This document shows, one piece after another, positions 5,753 to 61,614 of a stretch of 64,000 nt of DNA. A program made the position numbers and the translations under genes. Positions within the stretch are counted from its first letter, which is position 1. Every line of letters starts with the position of its first letter. Origin of the DNA: Patescibacteria group bacterium (GTDB lineage: Bacteria; Patescibacteriota; Patescibacteriia; Veblenbacterales; UBA10138); assembly GCA_041648575.1 (NCBI GenBank), contig JBAZOT010000003.1, positions 14,895 through 78,894 of the forward strand. Direction: 5' to 3'. A model generated the notes under the pieces. That model was not told where the DNA came from. It worked only from the letters and a program-made list of their open reading frames with translations, and searched no databases.

Positions 5753-5786
5753 ACAAAAATATAAAATTTAAAAATAAAATGCAAAA

Positions 5787-6332
5787 TTAGATCTTTTGAA
5801 TTTGTAAAAAATCCAACTCTACTGGCGTTTCCCGTCCAAACATTGAAACCAATACTTTTACTTTACCCCGACCTTCGTCTACCTCGGATACCTTACCGTC
5901 AAAATCCTTAAAAGGCCCATCACTAATTTTTACTGCCATACCAACAGTCACATCCATTTTATAAGTTGGCTCTTCAATGCCCATTCTTTTTTGCAACGCC
6001 TTCATTTCTTCTTCTGAAACTGGAGTTGGAGTGGTGCCGCTACCAATAAATCCAGTAACATTTGGGGTATTACGCACCACATACCATGAATCATCAGTCA
6101 CCATCATTTCCACTAATACGTATCCTGGAAAAATTTTCTCTTCAACCACTTTACGCTTGCCATTTTTAATGCGAATCTTTTTTTCAGTGGGAATTAAAAT
6201 ATTAAAAATCTTATCACCCATATCCATTGATTCAATACGCTGCTTTAAATTGCGGGTAACATTTTCCTCATAACCAGAATAGGTATGTAGGGCATACCAA
6301 CGTCTACCTTGTTGTATTATCTGTCGCGGCAT
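5787..6332 (-). CDS. nusG: transcription termination/antitermination factor NusG
   Basis: RWYALHTYSGYEENV (NGN domain) and a C-terminal KOW domain. I prefer ATG 6330-6332 (MPRQ) over the TTG at 6344 in the ORF track, because that TTG lies inside the repeat element. Confidence 0.9.
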   Translation of the reverse strand: MPRQIIQQGRRWYALHTYSGYEENVTRNLKQRIESMDMGDKIFNILIPTEKKIRIKNGKRKVVEEKIFPGYVLVEMMVTDDSWYVVRNTPNVTGFIGSGTTPTPVSEEEMKALQKRMGIEEPTYKMDVTVGMAVKISDGPFKDFDGKVSEVDEGRGKVKVLVSMFGRETPVELDFLQIQKI

Positions 6333-6333
6333 A

Positions 6334-6481
6334 TCCAGTAACAATAACTTGACCTGCTAAAAATTAAGCGAGTCAAAAGTTTATTTAATAGTTAGATCGG
6401 TCTTGTTTAAAAAAGATAACATAGATTAATAGTATAGATAATTTCTATCAGCACGAGCTTAAGTCAAGTTTTGTTACTGGA
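6334..6481 (-). mobile_element. MITE-like element copy 1 (148 bp) with about 20-bp terminal inverted repeats and CATA flanking duplication
   Basis: The ends are TCCAGTAACAATAACTTGAC ... GTCAAGTTTTGTTACTGGA. CATA occurs at 6330-6333 and 6482-6485. A second copy lies at 51634-51774. Confidence 0.75.
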
Positions 6482-6487
6482 CATAAT

Positions 6488-6676
6488 TTATTTATATAAT
6501 AATTGCTGCAACCCTATATTAAAAATATAATCTAAGGCGCCTAAAAAAATAGCTACCCCCAAAGAAATACCAATCACCAACAAAGTATGTTGGGTAGTTT
6601 CTTTTTTGGTAGGCCAAACAACCCTTTTAAGTTCTTCAATTGATTGTTTAAAATAATTGGTTAATTTATTAGGCAT
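6488..6676 (-). CDS. secE: preprotein translocase subunit SecE
   Basis: 62 aa with VVWPTKKET followed by a single TM helix. Lies upstream of nusG. Confidence 0.8.
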   Translation of the reverse strand: MPNKLTNYFKQSIEELKRVVWPTKKETTQHTLLVIGISLGVAIFLGALDYIFNIGLQQLLYK

Positions 6677-10373: not shown

Positions 10374-12881
10374 TTAATGATCTCTAACTTCTGCGTTAAA
10401 TTTTTTAATTAATATTTGCTTAATCTTTTCTATTACCTTGTCCACTTCTTCTGATGTTAATGTCCTATCCGAGGCACGTAAAGTCACGGTAAAGGCGATA
10501 CTGTGTTTAGGGGCGTAAACATCAAATAGTTCAATTGATTCTAATAAATCCATATTCTCAATTTCTTTTTGAATTTGAGACCAAGTTACCCTTTCTGGCA
10601 AAATAATTGATAGATCTCTCGCAGCTTCGGGGTACTCTGGTGGCGGTTCCGATGGGCTGGTCGGCCCTATTTCCAACATATCAAGTGACAACTCAATTAC
10701 TGCAGTAAATTCAGGCAAATCTAACTCCCGTCGTAATTTTTCTTGCAATATCCCGATGTGCCCAACTGTCTCGTTATTAATAATAATATCGGCTGCCATA
10801 TTTTCATTAAACCAGTCATGCTTAATTTTTTGCACTTCCACTAACTTAAAATCATTTTCCAGTTCATGGCCGATCTGTACGAGAACCCCAACCATATCAC
10901 GGTAACACCGGAGGAGGTCATCTCGTTCGTCACGTTTATTTCTACCAAGAACTATACCCAAATGAAACGGCTGTTTGGGTAAATTGCCACCCCCAGGTCT
11001 TCGTAAATACTCCTTACCGGATTCCGCCACAAAGACCCGGCCAATTTCAAACATTTTAACATTTTTATGTTTCTGACTATTTAAACCGGCTTGCCCTAAA
11101 AAGTTGGGTAATAAAGTTGGTCGTAAATAAGGCTTGCCCTGATCTGTTGGGTTTTCTAATTCAATACTTAAATCGCTTGTTATATGTTTACCTCTAATAG
11201 TCAGCCCAAAGTTTTGTAAATCTTTTTCACCCACAAATGAATGACTTAAAGTCTCTGTAAACCCAGCACCAATCAAGCACTCACGAATTTTTTGCATTAA
11301 CAATTGCTTTTCATCGGCCAATGGTTTAGTAATGGTAAAACTCGGCAGACTCGGCGTAATTTTTCCATAACCATAAATCCGTGCTACTTCCTCCAACAAA
11401 TCTTCACGAATTGTTACGTCTCTAGTGGCCCGCCATGAAGGCACGGTTACTTGCCATTTGACCACGCTGTCATCGCGATCCGCCCTGATCGGAGTGGCGA
11501 TCTTATGAGATTGCTTCGATCCGCTCGCAATGACTTTTATTTTAAAACCCAAATTCTCCAATATATTTTTAATCTGGCTATATTTTATTTTCGTACCCAA
11601 ACGCTCATTAATCCAATCGGGATTTACATTAATTTCAACCGGTTTAAATTTTTTAGGATATTCATCAACTAGGTCGCTGGCAACTTTTACGCCTGTAATT
11701 ATTTGTTGCATTATAGCCACAAAGCGCTTAATGCCAATTTCTGCTAGTTCTGGATCCAAAGCTTTTTCAAAACGAACAGATGCTTCGCTGCGTAAACCAA
11801 GTTTGCTGGCTGTTTGTCTTATACTAATCGGATTAAAAGTCGCAGATTCTACCACCAAGTTAGTTGTGCTAGATGAAACCTCACTAAACTCGCCACCCAT
11901 TACGCCAGCCACAGCAATCGCACTTTTATCATCAGCAATAACCAACATCTCACTGGATAATTTTCTGGATTCTCCATCTAGTGTTTTTATTACCTCTCCG
12001 GAGTTTGCTGTTCTGACAACAATTTTTGGAGAAGATAATTTTTGTAGATCAAAAGTGTGCAGTGGTTGGCCAGTTTCCAACATTACATAATTAGCAGCGT
12101 CCACCACATTATTTATTGATCTCATACCCAGGGCTTCTAATCTATTCTTTAACCATGTTGGTGATGAGGTAATCTTAATTCCAGCCAGCACCACCCCCAT
12201 ATACCTGTGGCATAAATCAGAGTTTTTAATTTCAACTTTAAACCCATTAGAGCCTTTTGGCAAATCAGCCAATTCCGGTAGTTTTAATTTTGTATTCCAC
12301 AAAGCTGCTAACTCCCTAGCCACACCCAAATGACTCCACAAATCAGGTCGATGAGTAATTGATTTATTATCAACTTCAATAACCAAATCATCTTTACCTA
12401 AAGCTTTGGCTAATAGTGTTCCAGGTTTAGCATCCAAATACGATAAATCCATAATGCCGTGCTCTGGTTCGTTATCATCAACCAAACCTAATTCTGCGGC
12501 CGAACAAGCCATACCATTACTTTTAACTCCACGAATAGTAGCAGCTTCCAATGACGCAAATTCACCCTCTCCATGCCATTTGACCAACGCGCCAGGTTGA
12601 GCCAGCGCGACTTTCATTCCTTCTTTTAAATTAATTCCTCCGCATACTATTTCCACTGTTTTGCCACCAATATCAACTGTAGCTAACTTTAATTTATCAG
12701 CATTAAGATGTGTTGATACTTTTATAACTAAGCCTACCGTGACTTTATTCAACTTTTCTGCCTCGCTGGTAACTGATTCTACCTCCATAACTGACATAGT
12801 CAAAAGCTCGCCCAACTCGCGCGCACTGATCCGCTTGGGTTTAACTATTAACTCTGCTAATGTTTTGTAAGAAAGATGCAT
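10374..12881 (-). CDS. pheT: phenylalanine--tRNA ligase beta subunit
   Basis: 835 aa with an N-terminal tRNA-binding domain, B3/4 and B5 domains, WQVTVPSWRATRDVTIREDLLEEVARIYGY, and a C-terminal FDX-ACB domain. Confidence 0.95.
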   Translation of the reverse strand: MHLSYKTLAELIVKPKRISARELGELLTMSVMEVESVTSEAEKLNKVTVGLVIKVSTHLNADKLKLATVDIGGKTVEIVCGGINLKEGMKVALAQPGALVKWHGEGEFASLEAATIRGVKSNGMACSAAELGLVDDNEPEHGIMDLSYLDAKPGTLLAKALGKDDLVIEVDNKSITHRPDLWSHLGVARELAALWNTKLKLPELADLPKGSNGFKVEIKNSDLCHRYMGVVLAGIKITSSPTWLKNRLEALGMRSINNVVDAANYVMLETGQPLHTFDLQKLSSPKIVVRTANSGEVIKTLDGESRKLSSEMLVIADDKSAIAVAGVMGGEFSEVSSSTTNLVVESATFNPISIRQTASKLGLRSEASVRFEKALDPELAEIGIKRFVAIMQQIITGVKVASDLVDEYPKKFKPVEINVNPDWINERLGTKIKYSQIKNILENLGFKIKVIASGSKQSHKIATPIRADRDDSVVKWQVTVPSWRATRDVTIREDLLEEVARIYGYGKITPSLPSFTITKPLADEKQLLMQKIRECLIGAGFTETLSHSFVGEKDLQNFGLTIRGKHITSDLSIELENPTDQGKPYLRPTLLPNFLGQAGLNSQKHKNVKMFEIGRVFVAESGKEYLRRPGGGNLPKQPFHLGIVLGRNKRDERDDLLRCYRDMVGVLVQIGHELENDFKLVEVQKIKHDWFNENMAADIIINNETVGHIGILQEKLRRELDLPEFTAVIELSLDMLEIGPTSPSEPPPEYPEAARDLSIILPERVTWSQIQKEIENMDLLESIELFDVYAPKHSIAFTVTLRASDRTLTSEEVDKVIEKIKQILIKKFNAEVRDH
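11469..11534. repeat. 66-nt palindromic element inserted in frame in pheT
   Basis: GTCATCGCGA...TCGCAATGAC termini. On the coding strand it is exactly 22 codons (VIASGSKQSHKIATPIRADRDD) in the loop before WQVTVPS. Confidence 0.7.
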
Positions 12882-12977
12882 GTAATTTCAAAATGTAAAA
12901 ATCAAAATGCAAAATGACAGATTAAACTTTAAAATTAATAAATAATTTTGATTTTTGATTTTTTAATTTTAAATTAA

Positions 12978-13025
12978 CTAAAATTGCTCTAAAAATCTTA
13001 AATTTACTGACAGAAGAAGAAATGA
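12978..13025 (-). pseudogene. orphan duplicate of the pheS 3' end
   Basis: Reads LSFLLLSVNLRFLEQF-stop versus the pheS tail IRLFLSGDLRFLEQF-stop. 12978-13003 matches 13899-13924 at 24/26 nt. Confidence 0.65.
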
Positions 13026-13034
13026 TAAATAACC

Positions 13035-13880
13035 CTACTTAATATTTCTTGATGAAGCCTCGTGTAATCCAGTAGATAAATCGCCCTTTGGTTGACTTAG
13101 ACAAAACAATAACACATAATCTTGATCATTATTCTTTGAGGTGTAAGTATAATCTTGATCGGGACAACCTCCTTCCATCCATGGCTGAGGATTACTGGGT
13201 ATCTGCCCCATATACACGGTTTCAAGTTTAGCATCGCAGTGACTCATAAAACCTTTTGAACTTAAACACAACCCACCCACAGCCAACGGTGCGGTGACTT
13301 TTGGATAATAATTTAACTCATCAAAATAAAACTCTAGCACCGTTTGTATTTGCCTTACGTCTGACAATCGTTTACCATCTCGTGATTTTTCTAATTTAGA
13401 ACTACCTGCGGGTAATACGCCAAGTAGAATCACTGCGATAATTATGTAACTCACCACATTAAACAAAACAGTCAATAGTGCGGTTTGACGACGAGTAAAT
13501 CCAAGCTTAAACAACCTACTTTTTACTACCCAGTACTCAATAAAAACAGTCGCGGGGAATAAAAATATGATGAAATAGGCAACATCAGTACCATAACCGT
13601 TTATTGGTAAAATTCCACCAATTATAGAAGTAACAAGATTGGCGATTAAGGATACTAAAATACTTTGCTTCCACGAAATTTCTTTTTTAAAAATCCAGCG
13701 CGAGAAATAGTAAATAGCTAGTGTCTCTGAAATAAAAATTATTGGGTAAATATACCAAACCGGAAGTAATGTATAGATAATTGGGGCTGCTAAATCCGCG
13801 TGGGCTATACCAGGCATCAACAACATGATTCCAATAACAAACAAGAGTCTATTAATTTTTATAATTATAAGTCGATTCAT
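13035..13880 (-). CDS. polytopic membrane protein with a C-terminal type IV pilin-like globular domain
   Basis: Signal-like N-terminus and about 5 TM helices, followed by SRDGKRLSDVRQIQTVLEFYFDELNYYP (the post-helix motif of pilin-like proteins) and paired Cys. It has no G/FTLIE prepilin site. Confidence 0.5.
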   Translation of the reverse strand: MNRLIIIKINRLLFVIGIMLLMPGIAHADLAAPIIYTLLPVWYIYPIIFISETLAIYYFSRWIFKKEISWKQSILVSLIANLVTSIIGGILPINGYGTDVAYFIIFLFPATVFIEYWVVKSRLFKLGFTRRQTALLTVLFNVVSYIIIAVILLGVLPAGSSKLEKSRDGKRLSDVRQIQTVLEFYFDELNYYPKVTAPLAVGGLCLSSKGFMSHCDAKLETVYMGQIPSNPQPWMEGGCPDQDYTYTSKNNDQDYVLLFCLSQPKGDLSTGLHEASSRNIK

Positions 13881-13898
13881 AATAGAGTAAATAAAAAA

Positions 13899-14921
13899 TT
13901 AAAATTGTTCTAAAAATCTTAAATCACCCGATAAAAATAGACGGATGTCATCAATCTGATATTTCATCATAACCAAACGAGACAGGCCTAAGCCAAAGGC
14001 AAAACCAGAAAATTTTTCAGGATTTACACCTCCAGCTTTTAATACGTTGGGATGCACTAAACCACAAGGCATCAATTCCACCCAACCAGATTGCTTACAA
14101 ACACTGCAACCTTTACCACCGCAAATAAAGCATTTTACATCCAGCTCAAATCCCGGCTCCACAAATGGAAAATAACCAGGTCGCAATCGAATCTCCACCT
14201 CTTTTTTAAATATTCCTTTTAACAACTCATTCATTACCCCGATCAAATGAGCTACGGTTATACCCTCTGCCACTACCAAACCTTCTAAGTGCCAAAAAGT
14301 ATTATCATGAGAAGCGTCAGTTGCTTCATAACGAAAGACTTTTCCCGGCACTACTGCGCGCAAAGGTGCGCCATATTTTTCCAGAGCCCTTACTTGCACG
14401 GACGAAGTATGAGTACGAAGCAACATCCTGTTGCCACTAATTGGCTTTTTTTCTTTAATATAAAAAGTGTCTTGAATATCTCGTGCTGGATGCCAGGAGG
14501 GAATATTTAAAGCCTCAAAATTATAATACTCGCTTTCCAATTCTGGTCCATCGAGTACCATAAAACCCATAGAGCGAAACAAATCTTCTAGTTCTTTTTG
14601 TACAATGGTTATGGGATGATAATGCCCGCGCGCGGGTTTAATACCAGGCAAAGTAACATCAAAAAATTCATCTAACTCTTTATTATTAGAAATATTTTTT
14701 TGCGTAAAAGCATTTTCTAAATCAACCTTCAACTCATTGGCTAACTTACCTAAACGTGGCCTCTGTTCTATACTAGATGCTTTAACCAATTGCATGACAG
14801 CGGCTAACTCTCCCTTACGGCCTAAATACTTAATCTGCCAATTTCGTAATTCGGCAGTCGAACGTAAAGATGACAATTCAGTCAGCGCTTGTTTTTTTAC
14901 ATTATTAATCTTATCAATCAT
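13899..14921 (-). CDS. pheS: phenylalanine--tRNA ligase alpha subunit
   Basis: 340 aa with class II motifs (HPARDIQDTFY, FRYEATDASH, GFAFGLGLSRL). Confidence 0.95.
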   Translation of the reverse strand: MIDKINNVKKQALTELSSLRSTAELRNWQIKYLGRKGELAAVMQLVKASSIEQRPRLGKLANELKVDLENAFTQKNISNNKELDEFFDVTLPGIKPARGHYHPITIVQKELEDLFRSMGFMVLDGPELESEYYNFEALNIPSWHPARDIQDTFYIKEKKPISGNRMLLRTHTSSVQVRALEKYGAPLRAVVPGKVFRYEATDASHDNTFWHLEGLVVAEGITVAHLIGVMNELLKGIFKKEVEIRLRPGYFPFVEPGFELDVKCFICGGKGCSVCKQSGWVELMPCGLVHPNVLKAGGVNPEKFSGFAFGLGLSRLVMMKYQIDDIRLFLSGDLRFLEQF

Positions 14922-17175: not shown

Positions 17176-17889
17176 TTAAATAATGCTAATAATATTAGTA
17201 TTTTCAGAGGAAGAAAGTAAACGGAAACCGCCTAATGGTTTGGGTCTTTTTGTTTGGGTAAATTCTTTCCTCATTAACTCTGCTATTTGTTCGTCTGTAA
17301 ATTTCTCATCCTGGTAGCTAATAGCCAAATCCAAAGTACGGGCAAAAAAGCCATGTGAAATGAATAGCGGCTGACGATTGGTATACTTATTTATTCTCCT
17401 TAAATATGTCAAAAAATTATTAGCTCTTTTATAAACATCAACAGGCCCCTCATCAATGATGTTGCCGTTTAAGAATGAATCGATGAATTTATTCCTCACC
17501 TCACTCATATCCTTAGCTTGTTCATAATATTCTGGAGTTATGTCGTCCATAGGAAATTTTACTTCTTTCAAATAATCGGAGGGGTGTACCTCTATATCAG
17601 CATCTACCAACCCTCTGACTAATTCAGCTGTCTGTCTACCTCGCAAAGCTGATGAACAAATAATGATATCAAAATCACCTTTCTTAATTTCTCCACTGCT
17701 TATCTTTTCTTGAATCAATTTAGTACTACTTTCTTTGTCTATGGGCGGATCCGTTTCTCCCCTCATAAATTTCACCAGTAACTCATAAGGAGGTTTTTCA
17801 CCTTTCTCAATATAAGTACTAATATCTAACACGTCGCCATGCCGTAAAAATAGTGATTCTAAATTCTCTCTACTAGACTTTGTGAACAT
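17176..17889 (-). CDS. histidine phosphatase (PGAM-like) family protein
   Basis: Carries LRHGDV (RHG motif), CSSALRGRQTAE and ISHGFFAR (second catalytic His context). Confidence 0.65.
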   Translation of the reverse strand: MFTKSSRENLESLFLRHGDVLDISTYIEKGEKPPYELLVKFMRGETDPPIDKESSTKLIQEKISSGEIKKGDFDIIICSSALRGRQTAELVRGLVDADIEVHPSDYLKEVKFPMDDITPEYYEQAKDMSEVRNKFIDSFLNGNIIDEGPVDVYKRANNFLTYLRRINKYTNRQPLFISHGFFARTLDLAISYQDEKFTDEQIAELMRKEFTQTKRPKPLGGFRLLSSSENTNIISII

Positions 17890-17896
17890 ATATTTA

Positions 17897-20800
17897 TTAT
17901 ATCAAAAATTTATACTGACAATCGTGACCGCCGTCTTTGTGAATCTCACTAAAATTATCCTGCTTTATAGATTCTATTATTTGCTCAATAACTTCTAAAT
18001 AGCGCGCTTGTAAATCTTCTAATTCTTCAGCCGCGCCCAAAAACGGATCAGACCAAACATTTTTATTTAAATACCAATATTGGCAATTAACCACTTTCTC
18101 CTGAAGAAACTCCTGCGCTGCTAATTGATAAATTAATAACTGGTCCTTGTCCACTTTAGCTAAATTTTTTGGCGGATTTTCACCAGTTTTATAATCAATA
18201 ATATTTACACCACCGACAGTAACATCCATCCGATCTATTTTGCCGACAAATTTATAATCACCAAAACGTATTTTAAAAAACTGCTCAATATATTTCGGTT
18301 GGGGTGGGTTATTTTTAATGGCATCGTAAAAAGTCTTAATTTGCTCCAATCCCCGCTTTTTAAAATTCTCGCGCTCTTGTTTGCTTTCGTACCAATCATC
18401 CAACCACACCTCTTGATAAATATTTTCCAGCTCTTTAATAGTTGGTAATTGAATCTTGCCTTTAGTTTTGCTGCCGGCAGTAAACAATCCCAACTGTTCT
18501 GAAGACAGGCGGCTTTGCCAAAGTTTCATAAAATGCTCCAAGGCTTTGTGCATGCTAGAACCAAAGCTTAAATAAGCATTACCCGGGGTAGGAATTTTTA
18601 GTAAATAACGGTATTTAAATTCCAACGGACATTTTAAATAACTGGAAATCGAAGAAAAAGAAAAATGTTCTGGTATTGAATAACTAACTTTTCTAGTTTT
18701 TACGCTGGTTTCTTTTTTATCCAACATTGATTCATCTTTCACTGTTGATTTGTCATAAACATTTTTATCAGCTAACCCAAGCTCATAAAGAAATTGCGAC
18801 GGCTTCCTTTTTTGCTTGCCAAAATAATCTAAAGCATAAGTAAAATATAAGCTGCGTTTGGCTCGCGTCATAGCTACATAAAACAGCCGACGCTCTTCTT
18901 GTAAATGAACATCACCTTCGGGTAAAATTTCCTTAATTAATTCCGTAGGCAAAACAATGGCTTCACGCCGCTCTGTGGATGGAAATCGGCGATCCACTAA
19001 CTGCACAATAAATACATATTTAAATTCCAAACCCTTGGCCGAGTGCACAGTAATTACTTTTACCATTTCCGGACCTTCTTCCCAAGCTGGCGGCAACTCG
19101 CCCTCTTCTCCAGCTTCCAGCTCTAAGGCAAACAAATTTAAAAAATTATTTAAACTTTTGTCAGTATTATCCAATTCAAACTCCTGGGTTTTTTTGAAAA
19201 AAGCCGTTAAATAATTAGCTTGTTTAATAACTTCGTAATTATCTTGATTTTGCACTAGCCAATCGCTCACGCCAATATCGCGTATCACGCGCAAATATGT
19301 TTCACTGGCTGTTTTTTCGCGGGCAAAACTAGAATGTTTAGTAATAAAATTTAATAAATTTTCAACTATTTTTTGGCCCTCGGTTGATAAAGGAATAGTT
19401 TTGGACTGATTTATAGCTTCGTACAAAGACAATGCTTTGCGATTGGCAAAATAAAGCAAGCTAGACAGGTCACTATTAGGCAATTTGAACCAGGGTGTGG
19501 TTAAAATGCGGTATAGGGCTTGAGACTCGTGATAATTGTCTAACAGCTTAAAATAAGCCATTAAATCAAGAATAATGGCCTCCTGGTAAAGCCCACGGCT
19601 AGCTACATACTCAAAAGGTATGCTGGCCTTGCGCAAACCCTGCAAAAACGGTTCAGCCGAAGCATTAGCCCTAACTAAGATAGCAAAATCATCCCAAGTA
19701 GCTTCTGAATCTATCTTTTTTAATTCAACAATTTTATTTATTACTCCAAACGATTCCTGATGAAGATTACTATAAGTCAGCAGTTCAATATTACCTGACT
19801 CACAACTGACTGCTTTTAATTTCTTAGATAATTTTTTTGCGCCTTGGCTCAACTTTATTTCTAATCGGTAAGGATTGTTTTGTTGGATAAATTTATAAGA
19901 CAAATCCAGAATGTCTTGCGTGCTGCGATAATTGGTAATTAACAAAATTTCTTTGGCCTGCGGATAATCTTTTTTAAATTCCAAAATATTAGAAATGGAA
20001 GCACCGCGGAATTTAAAAATTGACTGATCGTCATCCCCTACTACCGTAACATTATTAGCTGGAGCTGCTAAAATTTTTATTAATTCGTATTGCGCATAAT
20101 TAGTATCTTGAAACTCATCAATTAAAATGTATTTGAATTGTTTCTGAAAATGTTTTAAAACCCCAAGCCTAGTACGAAAAAGTTTCAAGCAATAATTAAT
20201 TAAATCACCAAAATCCAAAGCATTGTTATCTAACAGCAATTTTTGATAAACATGATAAGCCCGCGCAACTTCTTGCAAGCGTACGCTTTCATTTTCGTCT
20301 TCATTAATAATCTCGCTTTCGGTTTTTTCCACATCCTTACTTTTTCTCGTACTCTTACTCTTACTAATTTTCAAGAACTCACTTTGACCAGTGTTAAGTC
20401 TTTGTGATTCAGCTAGTTTCAAATAATCCCCCGGATACACTTCTTCATCTTTTGCTCGGGAAAAATGCTTAATTAAAGCATGCACAAATTTAGTGGAATT
20501 ACCCAAAGGCCGATAATAATCCAAATCAAATTTATCTAAATTCTGTTTAACCAATAGCCACTGTTCAGTAGTATTTAACAATTTAAAATCTCCGGGTAAG
20601 CCAATGTCCAGGCCATAATCTTTTAACACGCGCTCGGCAAAGGAGTGGAAAGTAGAAACCCATAAATTTACATAACCTAAAGGAAGTAGCTTATCCACCC
20701 GCTCTTCCATTTCACCAGCTGCTTTATCAGTAAAAGTTAAAGCTAAAATCTCGTTCGGTTTAGCTTTTTTTTGCTCAATTAGCCAAGCAATCCGCCTGGT

Positions 20801-20929
20801 AATTACAGTAGTTTTGCCCGTGCCAGCGCCAGCCACTATAAGAAGCGGCCCATCGCCATGCGTCACCGCCACTTTTTGTTCGGGATTTAAATCTTTGAGC
20901 AAATCATTGGTTCCTAACTTTTTCACCAT
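17897..20929 (-). CDS. UvrD/PcrA-type helicase fused to a C-terminal PD-(D/E)XK (Cas4/AddB-like) nuclease
   Basis: Helicase motifs GAGTGKT, DEFQDTN, VGDDDQSIFKFRGA and TVHSAKGLEF. The C-terminus carries CPLEFKYRY...IDRMD...IDYKTG...C motifs. Confidence 0.85.
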   Translation of the reverse strand: MVKKLGTNDLLKDLNPEQKVAVTHGDGPLLIVAGAGTGKTTVITRRIAWLIEQKKAKPNEILALTFTDKAAGEMEERVDKLLPLGYVNLWVSTFHSFAERVLKDYGLDIGLPGDFKLLNTTEQWLLVKQNLDKFDLDYYRPLGNSTKFVHALIKHFSRAKDEEVYPGDYLKLAESQRLNTGQSEFLKISKSKSTRKSKDVEKTESEIINEDENESVRLQEVARAYHVYQKLLLDNNALDFGDLINYCLKLFRTRLGVLKHFQKQFKYILIDEFQDTNYAQYELIKILAAPANNVTVVGDDDQSIFKFRGASISNILEFKKDYPQAKEILLITNYRSTQDILDLSYKFIQQNNPYRLEIKLSQGAKKLSKKLKAVSCESGNIELLTYSNLHQESFGVINKIVELKKIDSEATWDDFAILVRANASAEPFLQGLRKASIPFEYVASRGLYQEAIILDLMAYFKLLDNYHESQALYRILTTPWFKLPNSDLSSLLYFANRKALSLYEAINQSKTIPLSTEGQKIVENLLNFITKHSSFAREKTASETYLRVIRDIGVSDWLVQNQDNYEVIKQANYLTAFFKKTQEFELDNTDKSLNNFLNLFALELEAGEEGELPPAWEEGPEMVKVITVHSAKGLEFKYVFIVQLVDRRFPSTERREAIVLPTELIKEILPEGDVHLQEERRLFYVAMTRAKRSLYFTYALDYFGKQKRKPSQFLYELGLADKNVYDKSTVKDESMLDKKETSVKTRKVSYSIPEHFSFSSISSYLKCPLEFKYRYLLKIPTPGNAYLSFGSSMHKALEHFMKLWQSRLSSEQLGLFTAGSKTKGKIQLPTIKELENIYQEVWLDDWYESKQERENFKKRGLEQIKTFYDAIKNNPPQPKYIEQFFKIRFGDYKFVGKIDRMDVTVGGVNIIDYKTGENPPKNLAKVDKDQLLIYQLAAQEFLQEKVVNCQYWYLNKNVWSDPFLGAAEELEDLQARYLEVIEQIIESIKQDNFSEIHKDGGHDCQYKFLI

Positions 20930-25369: not shown

Positions 25370-25404
25370 ATTAAAAATTTAAAATTTAAAAATCAAAATG
25401 AAAA

Positions 25405-32711: not shown

Positions 32712-32749
32712 TAGTCATTTACCCTTTCGCGCGAAAGGGTAAATGACTA
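32712..32749. repeat. 38-bp perfect palindrome TAGTCATTTACCCTTTCGC|GCGAAAGGGTAAATGACTA
   Basis: Read directly from the sequence. It lies between the arsR-like stop and the promoter of the 240-aa gene. Confidence 0.8.
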
Positions 32750-32777
32750 AAGAAATAATTTATGCATAAACAGTTAA

Positions 32778-33062: not shown

Positions 33063-33100
33063 AGTATATCATATTTACTGATTCGCGCGAAAGGGTAAAT
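33063..33100 (-). promoter_or_regulatory. leaderless arsR promoter (TGA TATACT, 6 nt from the ATG) overlapped by a degenerate copy of the TTTACCC..GGGTAAA palindrome
   Basis: ATTTACTGATTCGCGCGAAAGGGTAAAT (33073-33100) covers the -35 position and may be an operator. Confidence 0.45.
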
Positions 33101-33120
33101 AATCATATAAACCAACACAT

Positions 33121-49739: not shown

Positions 49740-51632
49740 TTATCTAACAACCACTCCTTTGCCTTGCGCGCCTAAATCATTATCCAGTTCTGTGGTAACT
49801 AATTTATCTGTAGCAATTAAATCTGCACCGCTATAAGCATCCCGAGCTGTGGCAGTGGTGGTTTTTACCAACACTAAAATTTTATCCGCATCTTGCTCTG
49901 CCGGTGTAATAGCTACTTCAAAAGACGCTTCTGGTTTATCAAATTTAAACCCTACGCCCGCAGGCAGACGATTTAATTCCCAACGCACTTCGCGAGTATT
50001 GGGATTATATGTTAATGGCTGGCCATGCGATACTGTCGTTTGTCCGGTCCAGGTTACATCTTGGGGTAAAGTAGTAGTAACTTCAACGTTGCTAGCCTCA
50101 TTAATAGTATTGGCTAATCTCCAAAAAATATTATAAGTGGTAGTGTTGCCTACTCGCGGCGGCAACTGTCCCGAGCCAATTTTTATCAACTGATCTGTGT
50201 AATACCTACCTTCTGTTTGAACTAATAATTGTGTATTAATCTTGGTAATTATAATATTTGATTCAGTAGTAACCGGCTGTAATTTACCACCAATCAATTG
50301 CTCGGCACTCGCCTTAACGCTGGTATTAAAACTATAAGGCGACATATTGTTAGGAGCAACACTTACAACTTTCAAGCGAAAATTAATACTGCCTTTGGTA
50401 CCAGGAGCAACTCTAGCTAAACTGGGCAACTCATTTTTTGTCCAAACCACTGCGTTTTCTGTCTCTTTAACATTAGTTGGCGTATCTGTTTGCCAAGAGG
50501 TCCAATCTAATAACTCGGAATTTAATTTGGTCTCTAACACTAAATTAGTTAAAGCAATTTCCCCTTCATTAGCATAACGCAATTCAAAATCAATTTGTTC
50601 CCCCCAATCAGCATAGCTTTTTAAAACTACCTGATTCGCAGTTAATGACAATGTTAAATGAGACTCAATTAACGTTACAGATATTTTCTTTTCTTCTTGA
50701 ATAGTAAAAGTATTATCGTCATTAATCACACCAATGGCTACAGAAAAATCCTGAATACCAGCACTAGCTGAAGTGGTAAACCTGCCGGTAAATTCCAGCT
50801 CGCCAACACTTTTGGCAGATAGGTCATCCAATTTCCATAAATTTATTTCGCCAATTACTGATTCTAATTTTGGAAGATCCAATTCGAAGCCGCTGGGGCT
50901 AATGAATTTTAATGCTAAATTCGGCAACGCCGCAGTAGAAGTATTATTATACTTAATTTTTAATGCCAAATCTTGATCAAAAGGTAATTGTGCAGGAGCT
51001 TCTAAATCTATGGTTACTACCGAAGCAATTAATTCTGTGGAAAAAACTGTCGTCTTGGCAAACTGTGCTTTAAAATTTTCCGGCTCATATGTAAAAACCG
51101 CGGCCATTTCCTTAATCTCGCCAACCTCACCAACCATTTGCCCGGTTATTACCAACTCTCCACTACCTTTGGCGTCAACTTGACCTAAGAGAAATCTAGT
51201 CTTGGCTTCATCATCAGCTGGTTTACTGGTTTCAGTTACGACAAAACCAGTCGGATAGCGAAAATTAACTTCCAAAAAATTTAAACCAACTCCCTGATCA
51301 TTATTCCAAGACAAAGTATAATTAATCATTTGCCCCGATGGCGCACTGACTGGACCAGATAATTTCACCTTAACCGCTTCTTCGCCAAATTTTGTATTCT
51401 GACCACTAAAAAAAACAAACCAAATGCCACCGACAATAATTACCACTAATAAAGTGGTCGTTAACCATAACCAACCACGCTGACGTGAAGCTTTTTTTCT
51501 TAGCACGCGAAAATCTTCAGGTGGATCTTGGCGATACATGCGCGCCAATTCACGCTCGGCAACTTCTGCAGTTAAAGGTGTTTTTTTTGATTTTGATAAA
51601 GTATCAAGAGGTGGCCTAGAAATATTAGACAT
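49740..51632 (-). CDS. large membrane-anchored surface protein with repeated beta-sandwich (DUF11/CARDB-like) modules
   Basis: N-terminal cytoplasmic tail, one TM helix (LWLTTTLLVVIIVGGIWFVFF), then about 550 aa rich in T/V/N. I prefer ATG 51630-51632 over the TTG inside the repeat. Confidence 0.6.
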   Translation of the reverse strand: MSNISRPPLDTLSKSKKTPLTAEVAERELARMYRQDPPEDFRVLRKKASRQRGWLWLTTTLLVVIIVGGIWFVFFSGQNTKFGEEAVKVKLSGPVSAPSGQMINYTLSWNNDQGVGLNFLEVNFRYPTGFVVTETSKPADDEAKTRFLLGQVDAKGSGELVITGQMVGEVGEIKEMAAVFTYEPENFKAQFAKTTVFSTELIASVVTIDLEAPAQLPFDQDLALKIKYNNTSTAALPNLALKFISPSGFELDLPKLESVIGEINLWKLDDLSAKSVGELEFTGRFTTSASAGIQDFSVAIGVINDDNTFTIQEEKKISVTLIESHLTLSLTANQVVLKSYADWGEQIDFELRYANEGEIALTNLVLETKLNSELLDWTSWQTDTPTNVKETENAVVWTKNELPSLARVAPGTKGSINFRLKVVSVAPNNMSPYSFNTSVKASAEQLIGGKLQPVTTESNIIITKINTQLLVQTEGRYYTDQLIKIGSGQLPPRVGNTTTYNIFWRLANTINEASNVEVTTTLPQDVTWTGQTTVSHGQPLTYNPNTREVRWELNRLPAGVGFKFDKPEASFEVAITPAEQDADKILVLVKTTTATARDAYSGADLIATDKLVTTELDNDLGAQGKGVVVR

Positions 51633-51633
51633 A

Positions 51634-51774
51634 CCCAGTAACAAAAACTTGACCTGCTAAAAATTAAGCGAGTCGAGATAATTAATAATAAAAGTTGGTT
51701 GGTTTATAAAAGCTGACATAAATTGATAATATAGATGATTTTTACCAGAGCTTAAGTCAAGTTTTGTTACTAGG
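51634..51774 (-). mobile_element. MITE-like element copy 2 (141 bp)
   Basis: The ends are CCCAGTAACAAAAACTTGAC ... GTCAAGTTTTGTTACTAGG. CATA occurs at 51630-33 and 51775-78. It has the same orientation relative to transcription as copy 1. Confidence 0.75.
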
Positions 51775-51779
51775 CATAT

Positions 51780-52529
51780 TTATAGAATACTACGTAAAAG
51801 TTTTAATGTATAGAGTTGTCGTCCTGCCTGTCCTTGGACATAATCAACCAAAAATCCTAAAAGTTCAGCTGGTAATTGACGATTATACGGTGGTTCCGCT
51901 CGTGTCGCTAGGGTGTGTAAATAACTTAAAGCGTCATCAGTTAATAAAAACAAACCACTGCTATCGATGATACAATTTTTATGATAAAAACCATGTTCTC
52001 TAAAACTAAACACCACGGGCGCTGCTAATTCACCTTGGCATTTTGGACACCTAGTAACTTGAATTGCTAGACCAGTAATTTTTAATATTTTATAAATAAA
52101 TCTGCCCAGATATGTTCTGGCTCGCTCACGCCAAGCCGGCTCATCTTTGGGAATATCTTTTAATTGGCTTAAATAATACCTTAGCGATTTTAATAATTCC
52201 GGTTCAGGCGCGCCTAAAGAAGTTAGCACATCAGTTATTTCCAAAAACGAAGTGCCTAAAATGGCGGTATTTAAATGATAAGGTGTTTTTAAAAAAATTC
52301 TTTTAAGTTCCGCGCCTGCTAATTTATCATATTTTTTCCCCGGTGCCACCTGTACCTGAACTTCACCAAAAATCACCAAATGTGGAGCTAATTTAGATAA
52401 AATTTTTCGCGAACTAGTAGCTACCGCCTCAACCTTACCCCGTCGCTCTGTAAAAATAGTATAAAGCCGATCATTTTGCCTATGACTTCTAGCGCGTAAA
52501 ACAATACCGGTAGTGGTATAAGTAGACAT
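51780..52529 (-). CDS. recO: DNA repair protein RecO
   Basis: N-terminal OB fold (TTGIVLRARSHRQNDRLYTIFT) and zinc finger CPKCQG...HKNC. Confidence 0.8.
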   Translation of the reverse strand: MSTYTTTGIVLRARSHRQNDRLYTIFTERRGKVEAVATSSRKILSKLAPHLVIFGEVQVQVAPGKKYDKLAGAELKRIFLKTPYHLNTAILGTSFLEITDVLTSLGAPEPELLKSLRYYLSQLKDIPKDEPAWRERARTYLGRFIYKILKITGLAIQVTRCPKCQGELAAPVVFSFREHGFYHKNCIIDSSGLFLLTDDALSYLHTLATRAEPPYNRQLPAELLGFLVDYVQGQAGRQLYTLKLLRSIL

Positions 52530-60593: not shown

Positions 60594-60700
60594 CATGAAG
60601 TATATGCTAGCAAATTAATACGCCATGAAGTTGTATAAAGAAGTAAATACTTCTTGGCTCGCCATGAAGTTATGCGAATAAAATGAGCATATACTTCATG
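60594..60700. repeat. cluster of CATGAAGT/ACTTCATG repeats abutting the tmRNA 3' end
   Basis: A 15-bp inverted repeat CATGAAGTATATGCT (60594-608) pairs with AGCATATACTTCATG (60686-700). The direct repeat CGCCATGAAGTT occurs twice, and there is an inner hairpin AGAAGTA-AA-TACTTCT. Confidence 0.6.
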
Positions 60701-61081
60701 GTGGAGATGGCGGGAATTACACCCGCGTCTAAGACAATTAACTTTACCCTTCTACAAACTTAGTCTGATTAATTTTGACAGAAGTCAAATCAGACCAAAG
60801 CCCCTGTCAATCTGTCCTAAGTAATGTCGGCCTAAGCACTAGAACAATACTTAAACCCTGCTCGATAAATGACGCTCTATAAGACTATCGAGATCGTCTA
60901 ATAGAACGGCCTCTGCTTAAATTAAGCAAAAGCTGGTGCTAGTGTCAAAGTGCTAAAAGCAGCTTTGGCGCGAGCTACAAATGATTTGGCATTTGTGAAG
61001 TGTGATGCTTTTATTACGCAGACACATCAACTGCGGTCTGCCAGACAAAGATCACTGCCTTATCGATTGTTAAACATCCCC
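60699..61081 (-). ncRNA. ssrA: tmRNA (transfer-messenger RNA)
   Basis: The 5' GGGGATG pairs with the 3' CATCTCC-A-CCA, including a G3.U pair. T-arm GCGGG-TGTAATT-CCCGC. An internal tag frame ends ...LAPAFA-TAA with the stop inside hairpin GCTTAA-TT-TAAGC. Adjacent to smpB. Confidence 0.85.
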
Positions 61082-61167: not shown

Positions 61168-61614
61168 TTAATATTTTAACGAGCGTCTAATTTCTCTATT
61201 AACTTCTCTTTTTTTAATAGCTACTCTTTTATCATATTTATTCTTGCCCACAGCCACAGCAATCTCTACCTTTACCATACCGTGAGTAGTATACACTGAA
61301 ATTGGAACAATTGTCAAGCCTTTAACCCTGCCTTTACCTAATAAATAAGAAAGTTCTTTTTGATGCAAAAGTAATTTGCGATCACGCTTTGGCTCGTAAT
61401 TTTTTTGCACACCTCGGGCTGGTGCATAAGGCGCAATATGAGCGCCCACCAACCATAATTCACCCTGTTTGGGAATAACATAACTGCCTTGCAAATTAAT
61501 GCTACCGCGTTTAGCAGATTTCACTTCTGCGCCCTGCAATACCAAACCAGCTTCAAATTTCTCCTGAATATTGAAGTTAAATAGAGCTTTTTTATTGTCA
61601 GCTAAATGAGGCAT
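61168..61614 (-). CDS. smpB: SsrA-binding protein SmpB
   Basis: 148 aa with KFEAGLVLQGAEVKS and RKLLLHQKEL motifs. Confidence 0.95.
   Translation of the reverse strand: MPHLADNKKALFNFNIQEKFEAGLVLQGAEVKSAKRGSINLQGSYVIPKQGELWLVGAHIAPYAPARGVQKNYEPKRDRKLLLHQKELSYLLGKGRVKGLTIVPISVYTTHGMVKVEIAVAVGKNKYDKRVAIKKREVNREIRRSLKY

What the first reader, a model, noticed from the sequence alone, without database searches (positions are those of the whole stretch)
12978..13924. Gene cassette inserted into the 3' end of pheS, leaving a duplicated pheS tail next to pheT
What the sequence shows: pheS ends ...IRLFLSGDLRFLEQF-TAA at 13899. About 920 bp downstream, just before the pheT leader, an orphan frame reads ...LSFLLLSVNLRFLEQF-TAG (12978-13025). 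The last 26 nt of the two are 24/26 identical (12978-13003 versus 13899-13924), and similarity decays upstream. Between the repeats lies a single gene, the 281-aa pilin-like membrane protein. Inference: pheS and pheT were once adjacent. A cassette integrated within the last codons of pheS and carried, or regenerated, a functional pheS tail. This is the signature of site-specific integration into a gene's 3' end, although no integrase is present.
Basis: partly seen in the sequence, partly recalled or inferred. Interest (0 to 1): 0.65.

Follow-up and report, generated by a model that had tools for sequence, protein, structure and literature searches.

The report
Gene-insertion scar between pheS and pheT
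A single membrane-protein gene was recently inserted between the two phenylalanyl-tRNA synthetase genes of an uncultured Patescibacteria genome, leaving a 28-base copy of the pheS end as a scar; the scar is real, but nothing indicates an integrase made it.

Summary
The last 26 nt of pheS (13899-13924, minus strand) recur 24/26 at 12978-13003. Including 2 nt past the stop, the repeat is 28 nt at 26/28, against 0.01 such matches expected by chance. It is the only duplicated gene end among the window's 62 genes.

Between the copies lies one gene, X (13035-13880). It is an orphan chimera of a 4-helix membrane module and a pilin-like domain that lacks the prepilin motif.

The nearest relative (80% PheS identity) has the empty site: pheS tail, 71-nt leader, pheT. 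This is colinear with the window's orphan tail (25/26), 96-nt leader and pheT. So "pheS and pheT were once neighbours and a cassette went in" is supported.

Similarity does not decay upstream; it stops abruptly. Site-specific integration also lacks evidence:
- none of the roughly 60 long ORFs in the window matches an integrase or transposase family;
- the 27-mer is absent from viral contigs;
- about 200 other loci carrying this tail hold it once only;
- four other Patescibacteria loci show single-gene or small insertions flanked by duplications of different gene ends.

I favour a one-off, homology-assisted illegitimate recombination that used the very conserved pheS end. This is a modest finding of a known kind.

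The parts
13899..14921 (-). pheS, phenylalanyl-tRNA synthetase alpha subunit (340 aa), intact
   Evidence: ORF. Pfam PF02912 and PF01409 on the identical protein. 80% identical to the closest relatives.
13897..13924 (-). Proximal repeat copy: the functional pheS tail (last 8 codons, TAA stop, plus 2 nt)
   Evidence: Sequence ATTTAAGATTTTTAGAACAATTTTAATT.
13881..13898 (-). 18-nt spacer between the pheS stop codon and the start of X (TTTTTTATTTACTCTATT); its first 2 nt (13897-13898) are also the last 2 nt of the proximal repeat copy
   Evidence: I saw no Shine-Dalgarno-like sequence on reading it.
13035..13880 (-). Inserted gene X (281 aa). Signal-like N-terminus, then a 4-helix membrane module (aa about 10-152), then a type IV pilin / T2SS-G-like domain (aa about 139-281) without the prepilin N-methylation motif.
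   Evidence: Only itself plus one weak hit among 5.8 billion proteins by word search. HMMER against 1.84 billion representatives gave 2033 hits to the C-terminal domain and one 162-aa family member (P0154) to aa 10-152. Homologue P0128 carries PF07963 and PF08334. X itself has no Pfam hit above threshold.
13004..13034 (-). 31 nt between the stop of X and the orphan tail; not homologous to pheS
   Evidence: The TAG stop of X is in frame with the orphan tail, and no start codon lies between them (read).
12976..13003 (-). Distal repeat copy: orphan pheS tail (ATTTAAGATTTTTAGAGCAATTTTAGTT), untranslated. Most likely the original pheS end, still attached to the pheT leader.
   Evidence: 24/26 to the window's pheS tail and 25/26 to the pheS tails of L088 and L082.
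12882..12977 (-). 96-nt AT-rich pheT leader, homologous to the 71-nt pheS-pheT spacer of relative L088. The proximal ~32 nt (12882-12913) hold a motif that is also found directly upstream of rplK and atpG.
   Evidence: Alignment (50/71 identical, 25 gap columns). Motif repeats. No significant RNA fold (z = -0.61). No Rfam hit.
10374..12881 (-). pheT, phenylalanyl-tRNA synthetase beta subunit (835 aa), intact
   Evidence: Pfam domains.

Best explanation
A DNA segment of about 0.9 kb carrying one gene (X) was inserted, recently on the scale of this clade, at the very end of pheS. Before that, pheS was followed by a short leader and then pheT. The event duplicated the last 26 nt of pheS plus 2 nt. 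The proximal copy now completes pheS. The distal copy is a dead relic still attached to the old leader and pheT.

I think the most likely mechanism is a one-off, homology-assisted illegitimate recombination. A fragment from another, probably related, Patescibacteria genome carried X next to a pheS 3' end. It paired with the recipient through that extremely conserved stretch. Integration then followed one of two routes: a single (Campbell-type) crossover of a circularised fragment, or a homologous join on one side and an illegitimate join on the other (HFIR). Either route leaves the homologous stretch as a direct repeat.

Because pheS and pheT are essential and tightly packed, only insertions that regenerate the interrupted gene end survive. 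That would explain why such scars sit at gene ends.

What is shown: the repeat, the single cargo gene, the empty site in a relative, the lack of any match to mobility-gene families, and parallel scars elsewhere. What is inferred: the direction of the event (gain rather than loss), its recency, and the recombination route.
For: - Repeat and its uniqueness.
- Empty-site relative L088 is colinear with orphan tail, leader and pheT.
- Recency. 4-fold sites of pheS are only 47% identical between the window and L088, and the leader is 70% identical. The orphan 26-mer is still 25/26, so it has not drifted for long.
- The pheS tail is a plausible homology anchor. It is 22-26/26 identical at the DNA level in most of the 30 closest relatives, which have only 57-80% protein identity.
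- The junction is variable in the closest relatives. L082 and L091-L096 carry a different 271-aa membrane gene between pheS and pheT with no repeat. L089 has a homologue of that gene directly after pheS (its contig ends inside the gene). L087 has a 211-nt insert preceded by an orphan pheT head. L086 and L002 have a TAATG overlap.
- Donors with a gene directly after pheS therefore exist. Mosaic pheT N-termini fit recombination in this region but do not demonstrate it.
- Parallel scars with different duplicated segments: L011 (stop, intergenic region and 21 nt of pheT; 42/42 and 33/33 exact) around one 141-aa ORF; L059 (about 47 nt of the pheS head) around one 142-aa membrane ORF; L004 (36 nt of a UvrD/AddB-like tail) around one 451-aa symporter gene.
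- No match to any integrase or transposase family among the window's long ORFs.
- Literature. Single crossovers of circular molecules with one-sided homology produced 109-950-bp flanking duplications far more often than classical HFIR (PMC3240628). Variable segments flanked by short direct repeats and attributed to illegitimate recombination are common in bacteria (PMC2884548). Orphaned 3' gene ends have been explained by HFIR (PMC5361080).
Against: - 26-28 nt is at or below the minimum length for efficient RecA-dependent pairing. That threshold is about 30 bp in E. coli, as cited in PMC2884548.
- No donor carrying X next to pheS has been found; X has no close homologue anywhere.
- A sliding-window comparison found no foreign-looking 3' segment in the window's pheS (largest deficit -0.05). 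The relatives are equidistant, so the test has little power.
- Both copies share CAA where the five closest relatives have CAG. This fits an in-situ duplication equally well.
- The direction of the event rests on outgroups and on X being an orphan. A deletion between the repeats in the L088 lineage would produce the same empty site.
Confidence: 0.45

Rival explanations
1. Non-homologous duplicative insertion. A break at the pheS end was repaired by copying or capturing foreign or ectopic DNA. This could be template switching (MMBIR-type) or fill-in of a staggered break. Repair resumed 28 nt upstream of the departure point, creating a long target-site-duplication-like repeat from the recipient's own sequence.
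For: - The repeat boundaries are abrupt and both copies share CAA where the closest relatives have CAG.
- The five scars have different repeat lengths (28, 36, about 47, about 90-110, about 33 nt) at different positions, as expected for an untargeted process filtered by selection.
- No mobility genes were found.
Against: - In L087 the orphan pheT head resembles relatives' pheT heads at the amino-acid level (MYLSYKTLEEF against L088's MYLSYKTLEEL). The functional head differs (MYLSWFILKDL; 21/33 nt by my own count). This is hard to obtain from a simple in-situ duplication.
- In L011 the two copies differ by a 10-nt versus 37-nt replacement inside otherwise identical repeats.
- Duplications of tens of nucleotides are not a known product of any bacterial transposase (my own knowledge).
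Confidence: 0.25
2. Site-specific integration. X is the remnant of an integrative element whose recombinase recognised an att core in the pheS 3' end. The element carried a replacement tail, and the integrase and other genes were later deleted or act in trans.
For: - Direct repeats of 28 nt at a gene's 3' end with the gene regenerated are the classical attL/attR picture.
- An empty site exists in a relative.
Against: - No match to a recombinase family in the insert or among the long ORFs of the 64-kb window.
- The cargo is a single orphan gene.
- The 27-mer is absent from viral contigs.
- None of about 200 loci with this tail has a second copy.
- Relatives with a gene between pheS and pheT have no repeat.
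- Other scars duplicate different sequences.
Confidence: 0.15
3. The distal 28-mer is kept because it has a function, for example as part of the pheT promoter or leader or as a signal at the end of X. It would then not be a neutral scar. This rival is compatible with any of the insertion mechanisms.
For: - It is far better preserved (25/26 against L088) than the adjacent leader (70%).
- It lies at the 5' edge of a leader that carries a recurring promoter-like motif.
Against: - The recurring motif lies about 60 nt downstream of the 28-mer, next to the ATG. At rplK and atpG it occurs without any such 28-mer.
- No structured RNA: fold z = -0.61 and no Rfam hit.
- Recent insertion explains the preservation equally well.
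Confidence: 0.1
4. Chance similarity in AT-rich DNA, or an assembly artefact.
For: The sequence is AT-rich, and the pheS tail is shared by many co-occurring Patescibacteria. That sharing could seed chimeric joins. L083 may be such a case.
Against: - Expected 0.01 matches per window, and 0 of 100 shuffles gave 2.
- Control regions reach at most 17-19/26.
- Position and strand are exactly those predicted by the empty-site relative.
- The same structure occurs in at least 3 contigs from separate assemblies.
- A chimeric join would leave one copy, not two.
Confidence: 0.03

Closest known systems
Homology-facilitated illegitimate recombination (HFIR) and single-crossover integration of molecules with one-sided homology. 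Described in Streptococcus pneumoniae, Acinetobacter baylyi, Pseudomonas stutzeri and E. coli conjugation; summarised in PMC3240628 and PMC2884548.
   Same: Foreign DNA of about 1 kb with no mobility genes becomes fixed next to a stretch of homology. Single crossovers leave that homology as a direct duplication flanking the insert (109-950 bp in PMC3240628).
   Different: The duplicated homology here is only 28 nt. Classical HFIR usually deletes recipient DNA rather than duplicating it. Nothing has been shown experimentally in Patescibacteria, and the donor is unknown.
Integrative elements that target the 3' end of a gene and regenerate it (tRNA/tmRNA-, guaA- or trmE-type integration by tyrosine or serine recombinases; my own knowledge).
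   Same: Direct repeats bracket the insert, the target gene stays intact, and an orphan copy of the gene end lies at the far side.
   Different: No recombinase was found, there is a single cargo gene, the core does not recur in about 200 other loci or in viral contigs, and the core differs in the parallel cases.
Orphaned 3' gene ends and orphan immunity genes in Rhs/T6SS effector arrays, attributed to HFIR-like displacement (PMC5361080).
   Same: An incoming module anchored on a conserved upstream region pushes the old 3' end downstream, where it persists as an untranslated relic.
   Different: There the conserved anchor is long and the displaced piece is a variable toxin end plus an immunity gene. 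Here the anchor is an essential housekeeping gene and the relic is 28 nt.
Small variable segments flanked by short direct repeats in bacterial genomes (PMC2884548).
   Same: These are small indel-type loci. About 10-18% are flanked by direct repeats, mostly under 30 bp. They are enriched in membrane-protein genes and attributed to illegitimate recombination.
   Different: That survey covered E. coli, S. aureus and S. pyogenes. This is a compact Patescibacteria genome, and the repeat duplicates the end of an essential gene.

Membership tests
Integrase-mediated integrative element (attL/attR at a gene's 3' end) | Recombinase (tyrosine or serine integrase) encoded in or next to the insert | tested here: not met
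   The insert holds one 281-aa ORF with no Pfam hit above threshold. Pfam scans of about 60 ORFs across the 64-kb window found no integrase, transposase or resolvase.
Integrase-mediated integrative element (attL/attR at a gene's 3' end) | Identical or near-identical core repeats flanking the insert, with the target gene regenerated | tested here: met
   28-nt repeat at 26/28, and pheS is intact.
Integrase-mediated integrative element (attL/attR at a gene's 3' end) | The same core is reused: other cargos, other genomes, or an attP on a phage or plasmid | tested here: not met
   0 viral contigs carry the 27-mer. 119 metagenome contigs and about 90 other loci carry it once only. Relatives with another gene at this junction have no repeat.
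Integrase-mediated integrative element (attL/attR at a gene's 3' end) | Excision to a circle and an empty site within the population | not testable with these tools
   This needs read-level data. Only a relative at 80% PheS identity shows the empty site.
Transposon or insertion sequence with target-site duplication | Transposase and terminal inverted repeats at the insert ends; short target-site duplication (2-14 bp, my own knowledge) | tested here: not met
   No transposase. Only a low-complexity 19-nt AT-rich inverted match lies near the ends (I8). The duplication is 28 nt.
Homology-assisted illegitimate integration (HFIR or single crossover) | The duplicated or anchoring segment is a sequence shared between donor and recipient | tested here: met
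   The pheS last 26 nt are 22-26/26 identical in most of the closest relatives, at 57-80% protein identity.
Homology-assisted illegitimate integration (HFIR or single crossover) | Insert of foreign origin with an identifiable donor arrangement (cargo adjacent to the anchor gene) | tested here: inconclusive
   Relatives do carry other genes directly after pheS. No donor with X was found, and the GC content of X equals that of its flanks.
Homology-assisted illegitimate integration (HFIR or single crossover) | Microhomology at the illegitimate joint, or a recombinant tract in the anchor gene | tested here: inconclusive
   No clear microhomology at 13003/13004. The sliding-window identity of pheS shows no foreign 3' tract, but the test has low power.
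Type IV pilin / T2SS pseudopilin (for cargo gene X) | Class III signal peptide with the G/FTLxE N-methylation motif (PF07963) | tested here: not met
   No PF07963 hit for X. The aligned helix reads RRQTALLTVLFNVVSY. Homologue P0128 does have PF07963 and PF08334.
Type IV pilin / T2SS pseudopilin (for cargo gene X) | Pilin-type globular domain following the hydrophobic helix | tested here: met
   X aa 139-281 align to more than 2000 proteins, 255 of them at E<=1e-10. These include canonical pilins of 140-170 aa.

The most novel reading that the evidence does not exclude
Patescibacteria may gain single genes through a dedicated but unrecognised route. One candidate is DNA taken up through their competence and pilus machinery, then integrated using very short conserved gene ends as anchors. 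Such a route would systematically leave 28-110-nt duplications of essential-gene ends. The pheS-pheT junction would be one of its hotspots, preferentially receiving membrane or surface proteins. The five scars found here (window, L004, L011, L059, L087) would be its first catalogue.
Probability: 0.12. Interest if true: 0.6.

Novelty: new member of a known kind. Interest (0 to 1): 0.35.

Why it matters
Patescibacteria (CPR) genomes are small and tightly packed. How they acquire new surface and membrane proteins, which are their interface with host cells, is poorly documented. This locus is a clean, datable example of gene gain inside an essential operon with no mobile-element genes involved, and a relative preserves the empty site. 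Four similar scars turned up in other lineages. Together they suggest that short, highly conserved gene ends can serve as landing pads for foreign DNA, and that duplicated gene ends could be used as a searchable marker of recent gene gain in metagenome-assembled genomes. It does not reveal a new kind of mobile element.

Tried and rejected
- Extended homology upstream of the 26-mer. It is at chance level against the window's pheS and 83 relatives. A banded alignment gives only a weak hint. Rejected as evidence.
- Duplicated pheS tails in relatives. None in 80 GTDB loci (best 12-19/26, the same as controls), and none in 119 metagenome contigs.
- Integrase search. Pfam scans of about 60 window ORFs were negative.
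- attP on a virus. The 27-mer is absent from viral contigs.
- Same-species empty site. An exact 40-mer of the leader and pheT start found nothing in JGI metagenomes. Exact-protein look-ups of PheS, X and PheT returned only the same arrangement, or a contig cut inside the leader.
- Homology between X and the 271-aa gene that occupies the same junction in L082/L091. None by BLASTP, and shuffle z = 0.5.
- Genomic context of the only homologue of X's N-terminal module (P0154). It sits next to a ComM-like gene, not pheS.
- Foreign 3' tract in pheS. Sliding-window identity against five relatives gave no signal.
- Structured RNA or terminator in the orphan and leader region. Fold z = -0.61 and no Rfam family. 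The terminator scan found only two sites, both on the opposite strand inside pheS, no more than the shuffles give.
- Compositional anomaly of the insert. None.
- Paralogues of X or of the cassette DNA in the window. None.
- A sixth candidate scar, L183, turned out to be a diversity-generating retroelement, with the variable and template repeats next to a reverse transcriptase. It was excluded.
- The original HFIR papers (PMC122324, PMC122325) are not held in the library.
Full report
**What is in the sequence**

All genes near the finding lie on the minus strand. pheS (13899-14921) ends ...GDLRFLEQF-TAA. An 18-nt spacer follows, then a 281-aa ORF, X (13035-13880). After X come 31 nt, then the sequence ATTTAAGATTTTTAGAGCAATTTTAG (12978-13003), then a 96-nt AT-rich leader (12882-12977), then pheT (10374-12881).

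The pheS tail 26-mer has exactly one other match in the window at up to 3 mismatches. That match is this one, with 2 mismatches, on the same strand. Chance would give 0.01 such matches.

The repeat tool extends the match to 45 nt at 78%. Base-by-base comparison shows a sharp core of 28 nt at 26/28 (12976-13003 versus 13897-13924), which includes 2 nt past the stop codon.

I tested the first and last 26 nt of all 62 genes in the window for a copy within 3 kb. This is the only one at 21/26 or better. The same arrangement occurs in at least three contigs from separate assemblies.

**What is not there**

- The 22 nt upstream of the orphan core match the window's pheS at 9/22.
- They match 83 relatives' pheS at a mean of 6.8/22, which I read as chance level for this composition.
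- Genuine pheS tails match the window's at a mean of 12.8/22, and the closest relatives at 13-20/22.
- A banded local alignment gives only a marginal hint of older homology (p about 0.003 against one relative, 0.2 against the window's own pheS).

The repeat is therefore short and abruptly bounded.

**Whose genome, and what relatives show**

The proteins belong to an uncultured Patescibacteria MAG. The window is a core housekeeping region. It encodes ATP synthase, ribosomal proteins, six tRNA synthetases, gyrB, tmRNA and smpB.

Among 80 species-level relatives, the closest have pheS and pheT abutting: L002 overlaps as TAATG, and L003, L006 and L007 have gaps of 3-10 nt. None of the 42 relatives with gaps of at least 60 nt has a second pheS tail. 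Their best matches are 12-19/26, equal to controls.

Closer relatives were reached through protein search and contig look-up.

- L088 (80% PheS identity) reads pheS tail, 71-nt leader, pheT. It aligns colinearly with the window's orphan tail (25/26), leader (50/71 identical plus 25 gap columns) and pheT. This is the empty site.
- It also shows that the leader predates the insertion.
- L086 (77%) has the TAATG overlap.

**Direction and age**

X has no homologue closer than 46% identity, and its hits match only one of its two domains, in 1.84 billion representatives. No relative has X at this junction. I therefore infer a gain in the window's lineage.

A caveat applies. A deletion between the two repeats would recreate the empty site exactly, so this direction is an inference and is not proven.

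Fourfold-degenerate sites of pheS are only 47% identical between the window and L088. The leader is 70% identical. The untranslated orphan core is still 25/26. It has therefore been free of selection for only a small fraction of that divergence, unless it has acquired a function.

**The cargo**

- X aa 10-152 match one 162-aa membrane-protein family (P0154; 39% identity; shuffle z = 27).
- X aa about 139-281 match more than 2000 pilin-like proteins. One of them, P0128, carries the N-methylation motif and the T2SS-G domain.
- X itself lacks the prepilin motif.

"Pilin-like membrane protein" is a fair description. More precisely, X is a pilin-type head on a non-pilin membrane anchor. Its GC content does not differ from its flanks.

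**Is it site-specific integration?**

The evidence is against it.

- No integrase, transposase or resolvase domain occurs in X or in about 60 other ORFs of the window.
- The 27-mer is absent from 2.9 million viral contigs.
- 119 metagenome contigs carrying the 26-mer each have a single copy, and 76 of them extend at least 1.5 kb downstream.
- Relatives L082 and L091-L096 (79% PheS identity) carry a different 271-aa membrane gene between pheS and pheT, with gaps of 4 and 9 nt and no repeat. L089 (80%) has a homologue of that gene.

The junction is therefore variable, but it is not organised around one core.

**Parallel scars**

Scanning the relatives' loci for duplicated gene ends gave four further cases.

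- L011: the pheS stop codon, the 66-nt intergenic region and the first 21 nt of pheT are repeated. Blocks of 42/42 and 33/33 are exact. The repeats flank one 141-aa ORF.
- L059: about 47 nt of the pheS head are repeated 728 nt upstream, around one 142-aa membrane ORF.
- L004: 36 nt of a UvrD/AddB-like gene's tail are repeated around one 451-aa sodium:solute symporter gene. The orphan tail abuts the next gene's start.
- L087 (76% PheS identity, same synteny): an orphan pheT head, MYLSYKTLEEF, follows the pheS TAATG directly. Then come a 211-nt insert and the real pheT. The orphan head looks more like relatives' pheT heads than the functional one does.

A further hit, L183, is a diversity-generating retroelement and was excluded.

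Each case duplicates a different segment, 28 to about 110 nt long. None contains a mobility gene. This points to a generic recombination process filtered by selection. In a compact genome, an insertion survives only if the interrupted essential gene end is regenerated.

**Mechanism**

The pheS tail is unusually conserved at the DNA level. It is 22-26/26 identical in most of the closest relatives, even at 57-80% protein identity. A fragment from another Patescibacteria genome ending in, or containing, this tail could therefore pair with the recipient.

Experimental work in E. coli showed what single crossovers of circular molecules with one-sided homology do. They generate flanking duplications of the homologous segment (109-950 bp), and they do so much more often than classical HFIR (PMC3240628).

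Surveys attribute many small variable segments to illegitimate recombination, and 10-18% of those segments are flanked by short direct repeats (PMC2884548). HFIR-like displacement has been invoked for orphaned 3' gene ends in T6SS/Rhs arrays (PMC5361080).

I therefore favour homology-assisted illegitimate integration (confidence 0.45). The main rival is an in-situ duplicative repair event, such as template switching or a staggered break (0.25). Integrase-mediated integration is third (0.15).

Two tests could have separated the first two, and both were inconclusive.

- No foreign tract was detectable in the pheS 3' part.
- The two mismatches (GAA/GAG and TAA/TAG) cannot be polarised, because relatives vary at both sites.

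**Consequences for expression (inferred)**

X starts 18 nt after the pheS stop and is probably read from the pheS transcript.

pheT sits behind the old leader. The ~32 nt of that leader next to the ATG (12882-12913) carry a motif, TTTTGCATTTTGATTTTTA-ATTTT-AAATT. This motif also occurs directly upstream of the ATG of rplK and atpG. It is also present in L088's leader, so it is likely a native promoter or initiation module.

The orphan-plus-leader region does not fold better than shuffles (z = -0.61) and matches no Rfam family.

**Verdict**

This is a genuine, tidy scar of a recent one-gene insertion into an essential operon. The specific claims of upstream decay and of site-specific integration are not supported.

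It belongs to a known class: illegitimate or homology-assisted insertions flanked by short direct repeats. It is of moderate interest, mainly as a marker of how Patescibacteria acquire surface proteins.

Noticed in passing
L011 6018-6668 (MHKL01000026, Komeilibacteria): The pheS stop codon, the 66-nt intergenic region and the first 21 nt of pheT are directly repeated, with exact blocks of 42/42 and 33/33. The repeats flank one 141-aa ORF with no Pfam hit. An orphan pheT head (MKVSLNHLKLIT*) precedes the inserted gene.
   Followed up: partly
L059 4250-5050 (CAYHGS010000004, Peribacteria): About 47 nt of the pheS 5' end (25/26 in the first 26) are repeated 728 nt upstream of the real pheS start. 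The repeats flank one 142-aa multi-helix membrane ORF. A terminator-like hairpin follows the orphan head.
   Followed up: partly
L004 2020-3525 (JBAZQK010000003): A 36-nt tail of a UvrD/AddB-like gene is repeated (25/26 in the last 26) around one 451-aa sodium:solute symporter gene. The orphan tail abuts the start of the histidine-phosphatase gene. In the window, the two flanking genes are adjacent (17897-20929 and 17176-17889).
   Followed up: partly
L087 6024-6240 (Logan SRR22388232_12897): An orphan pheT head (MYLSYKTLEEF) follows the pheS TAATG directly. A 211-nt insert containing a GC-rich palindrome (GTCATCGCGAGG...CCTCGCAATGAC) comes next, then the real pheT, whose first 11 codons are divergent.
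   Followed up: partly
L082, L084, L091-L096 versus L083: Contigs with 99.5% identical pheS DNA diverge exactly at the stop codon. One set continues with a 271-aa membrane gene (P0272) and a long-type pheT. L083 continues after 7 nt with a short-type pheT that lacks the tRNA-binding domain and is only about 36% identical. This is either a real recombinant or a low-coverage chimeric join at the conserved pheS tail.
   Followed up: partly
window 12882-12913, 5755-5789, 25375-25404 (minus strand): A shared AT-rich motif of about 30-35 nt (TTTTGCATTTTGATTTTTAAATTTTAAATTTTT) ends 2-5 nt before the ATG of pheT, rplK and the ATP synthase gamma gene. It is also present in L088's pheT leader. It is probably a promoter or translation-initiation module of this lineage.
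   Followed up: partly
window 11469-11534 (inside pheT): A 66-nt GC-rich element with imperfect inverted ends (GTCATTGCGAG...CGCGATGAC) sits in frame in pheT and encodes VIASGSKQSHKIATPIRADRDD. A similar insertion is present in L091's PheT and absent in L086 and L003. It resembles the palindrome in L087's insert. This looks like a MITE-like element tolerated inside an essential gene.
   Followed up: partly
window 6330-6488 and 51630-51781: Two copies (about 81% identical overall, ends 91-96%) of an element of about 150-160 nt with terminal inverted repeats (CCAGTAACAAAACTTGAC ... GTCAAGTTnTTGTTACTGG). One lies upstream of nusG and one upstream of a 634-aa DUF11 protein gene. This looks like a MITE, although no transposase is present in the window.
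   Followed up: partly
window 13035-13037 and 12978-13034: The TAG stop of X is in the same reading frame as the orphan pheS tail. Read-through would add GYLSFLLLSVNLRFLEQF. There is a one-in-three chance this is coincidence.
   Followed up: no
window 32717-32755 and 33073-33111: Two copies (79%) of a palindromic hairpin (ATTTACCCTTTCGCGCGAAAGGGTAAAT) lie 356 nt apart in a 550-nt gap between a 240-aa ORF and tatD. No tRNA or Rfam hit falls there.
   Followed up: no
L088 1197-1598: The PheT N-terminal region of the closest relative is mosaic. The first ~43 residues look similar to the window's when the two sequences are read side by side. Over the first 134 residues identity to the window and other close relatives is only about 50%, although PheS is 80% identical.
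   Followed up: no
L183 449-2969: This is a diversity-generating retroelement. The 3' end of a 204-aa target gene is repeated 463 nt downstream (24/26), next to a reverse transcriptase gene. It surfaced as a false positive of the gene-end duplication scan.
   Followed up: partly
window 60699-61081 and 61168-61614: tmRNA (Rfam, 97.5 bits) lies next to smpB. ARAGORN, which also looks for tmRNA, reported no tRNA or tmRNA gene in the whole 64 kb.
   Followed up: no
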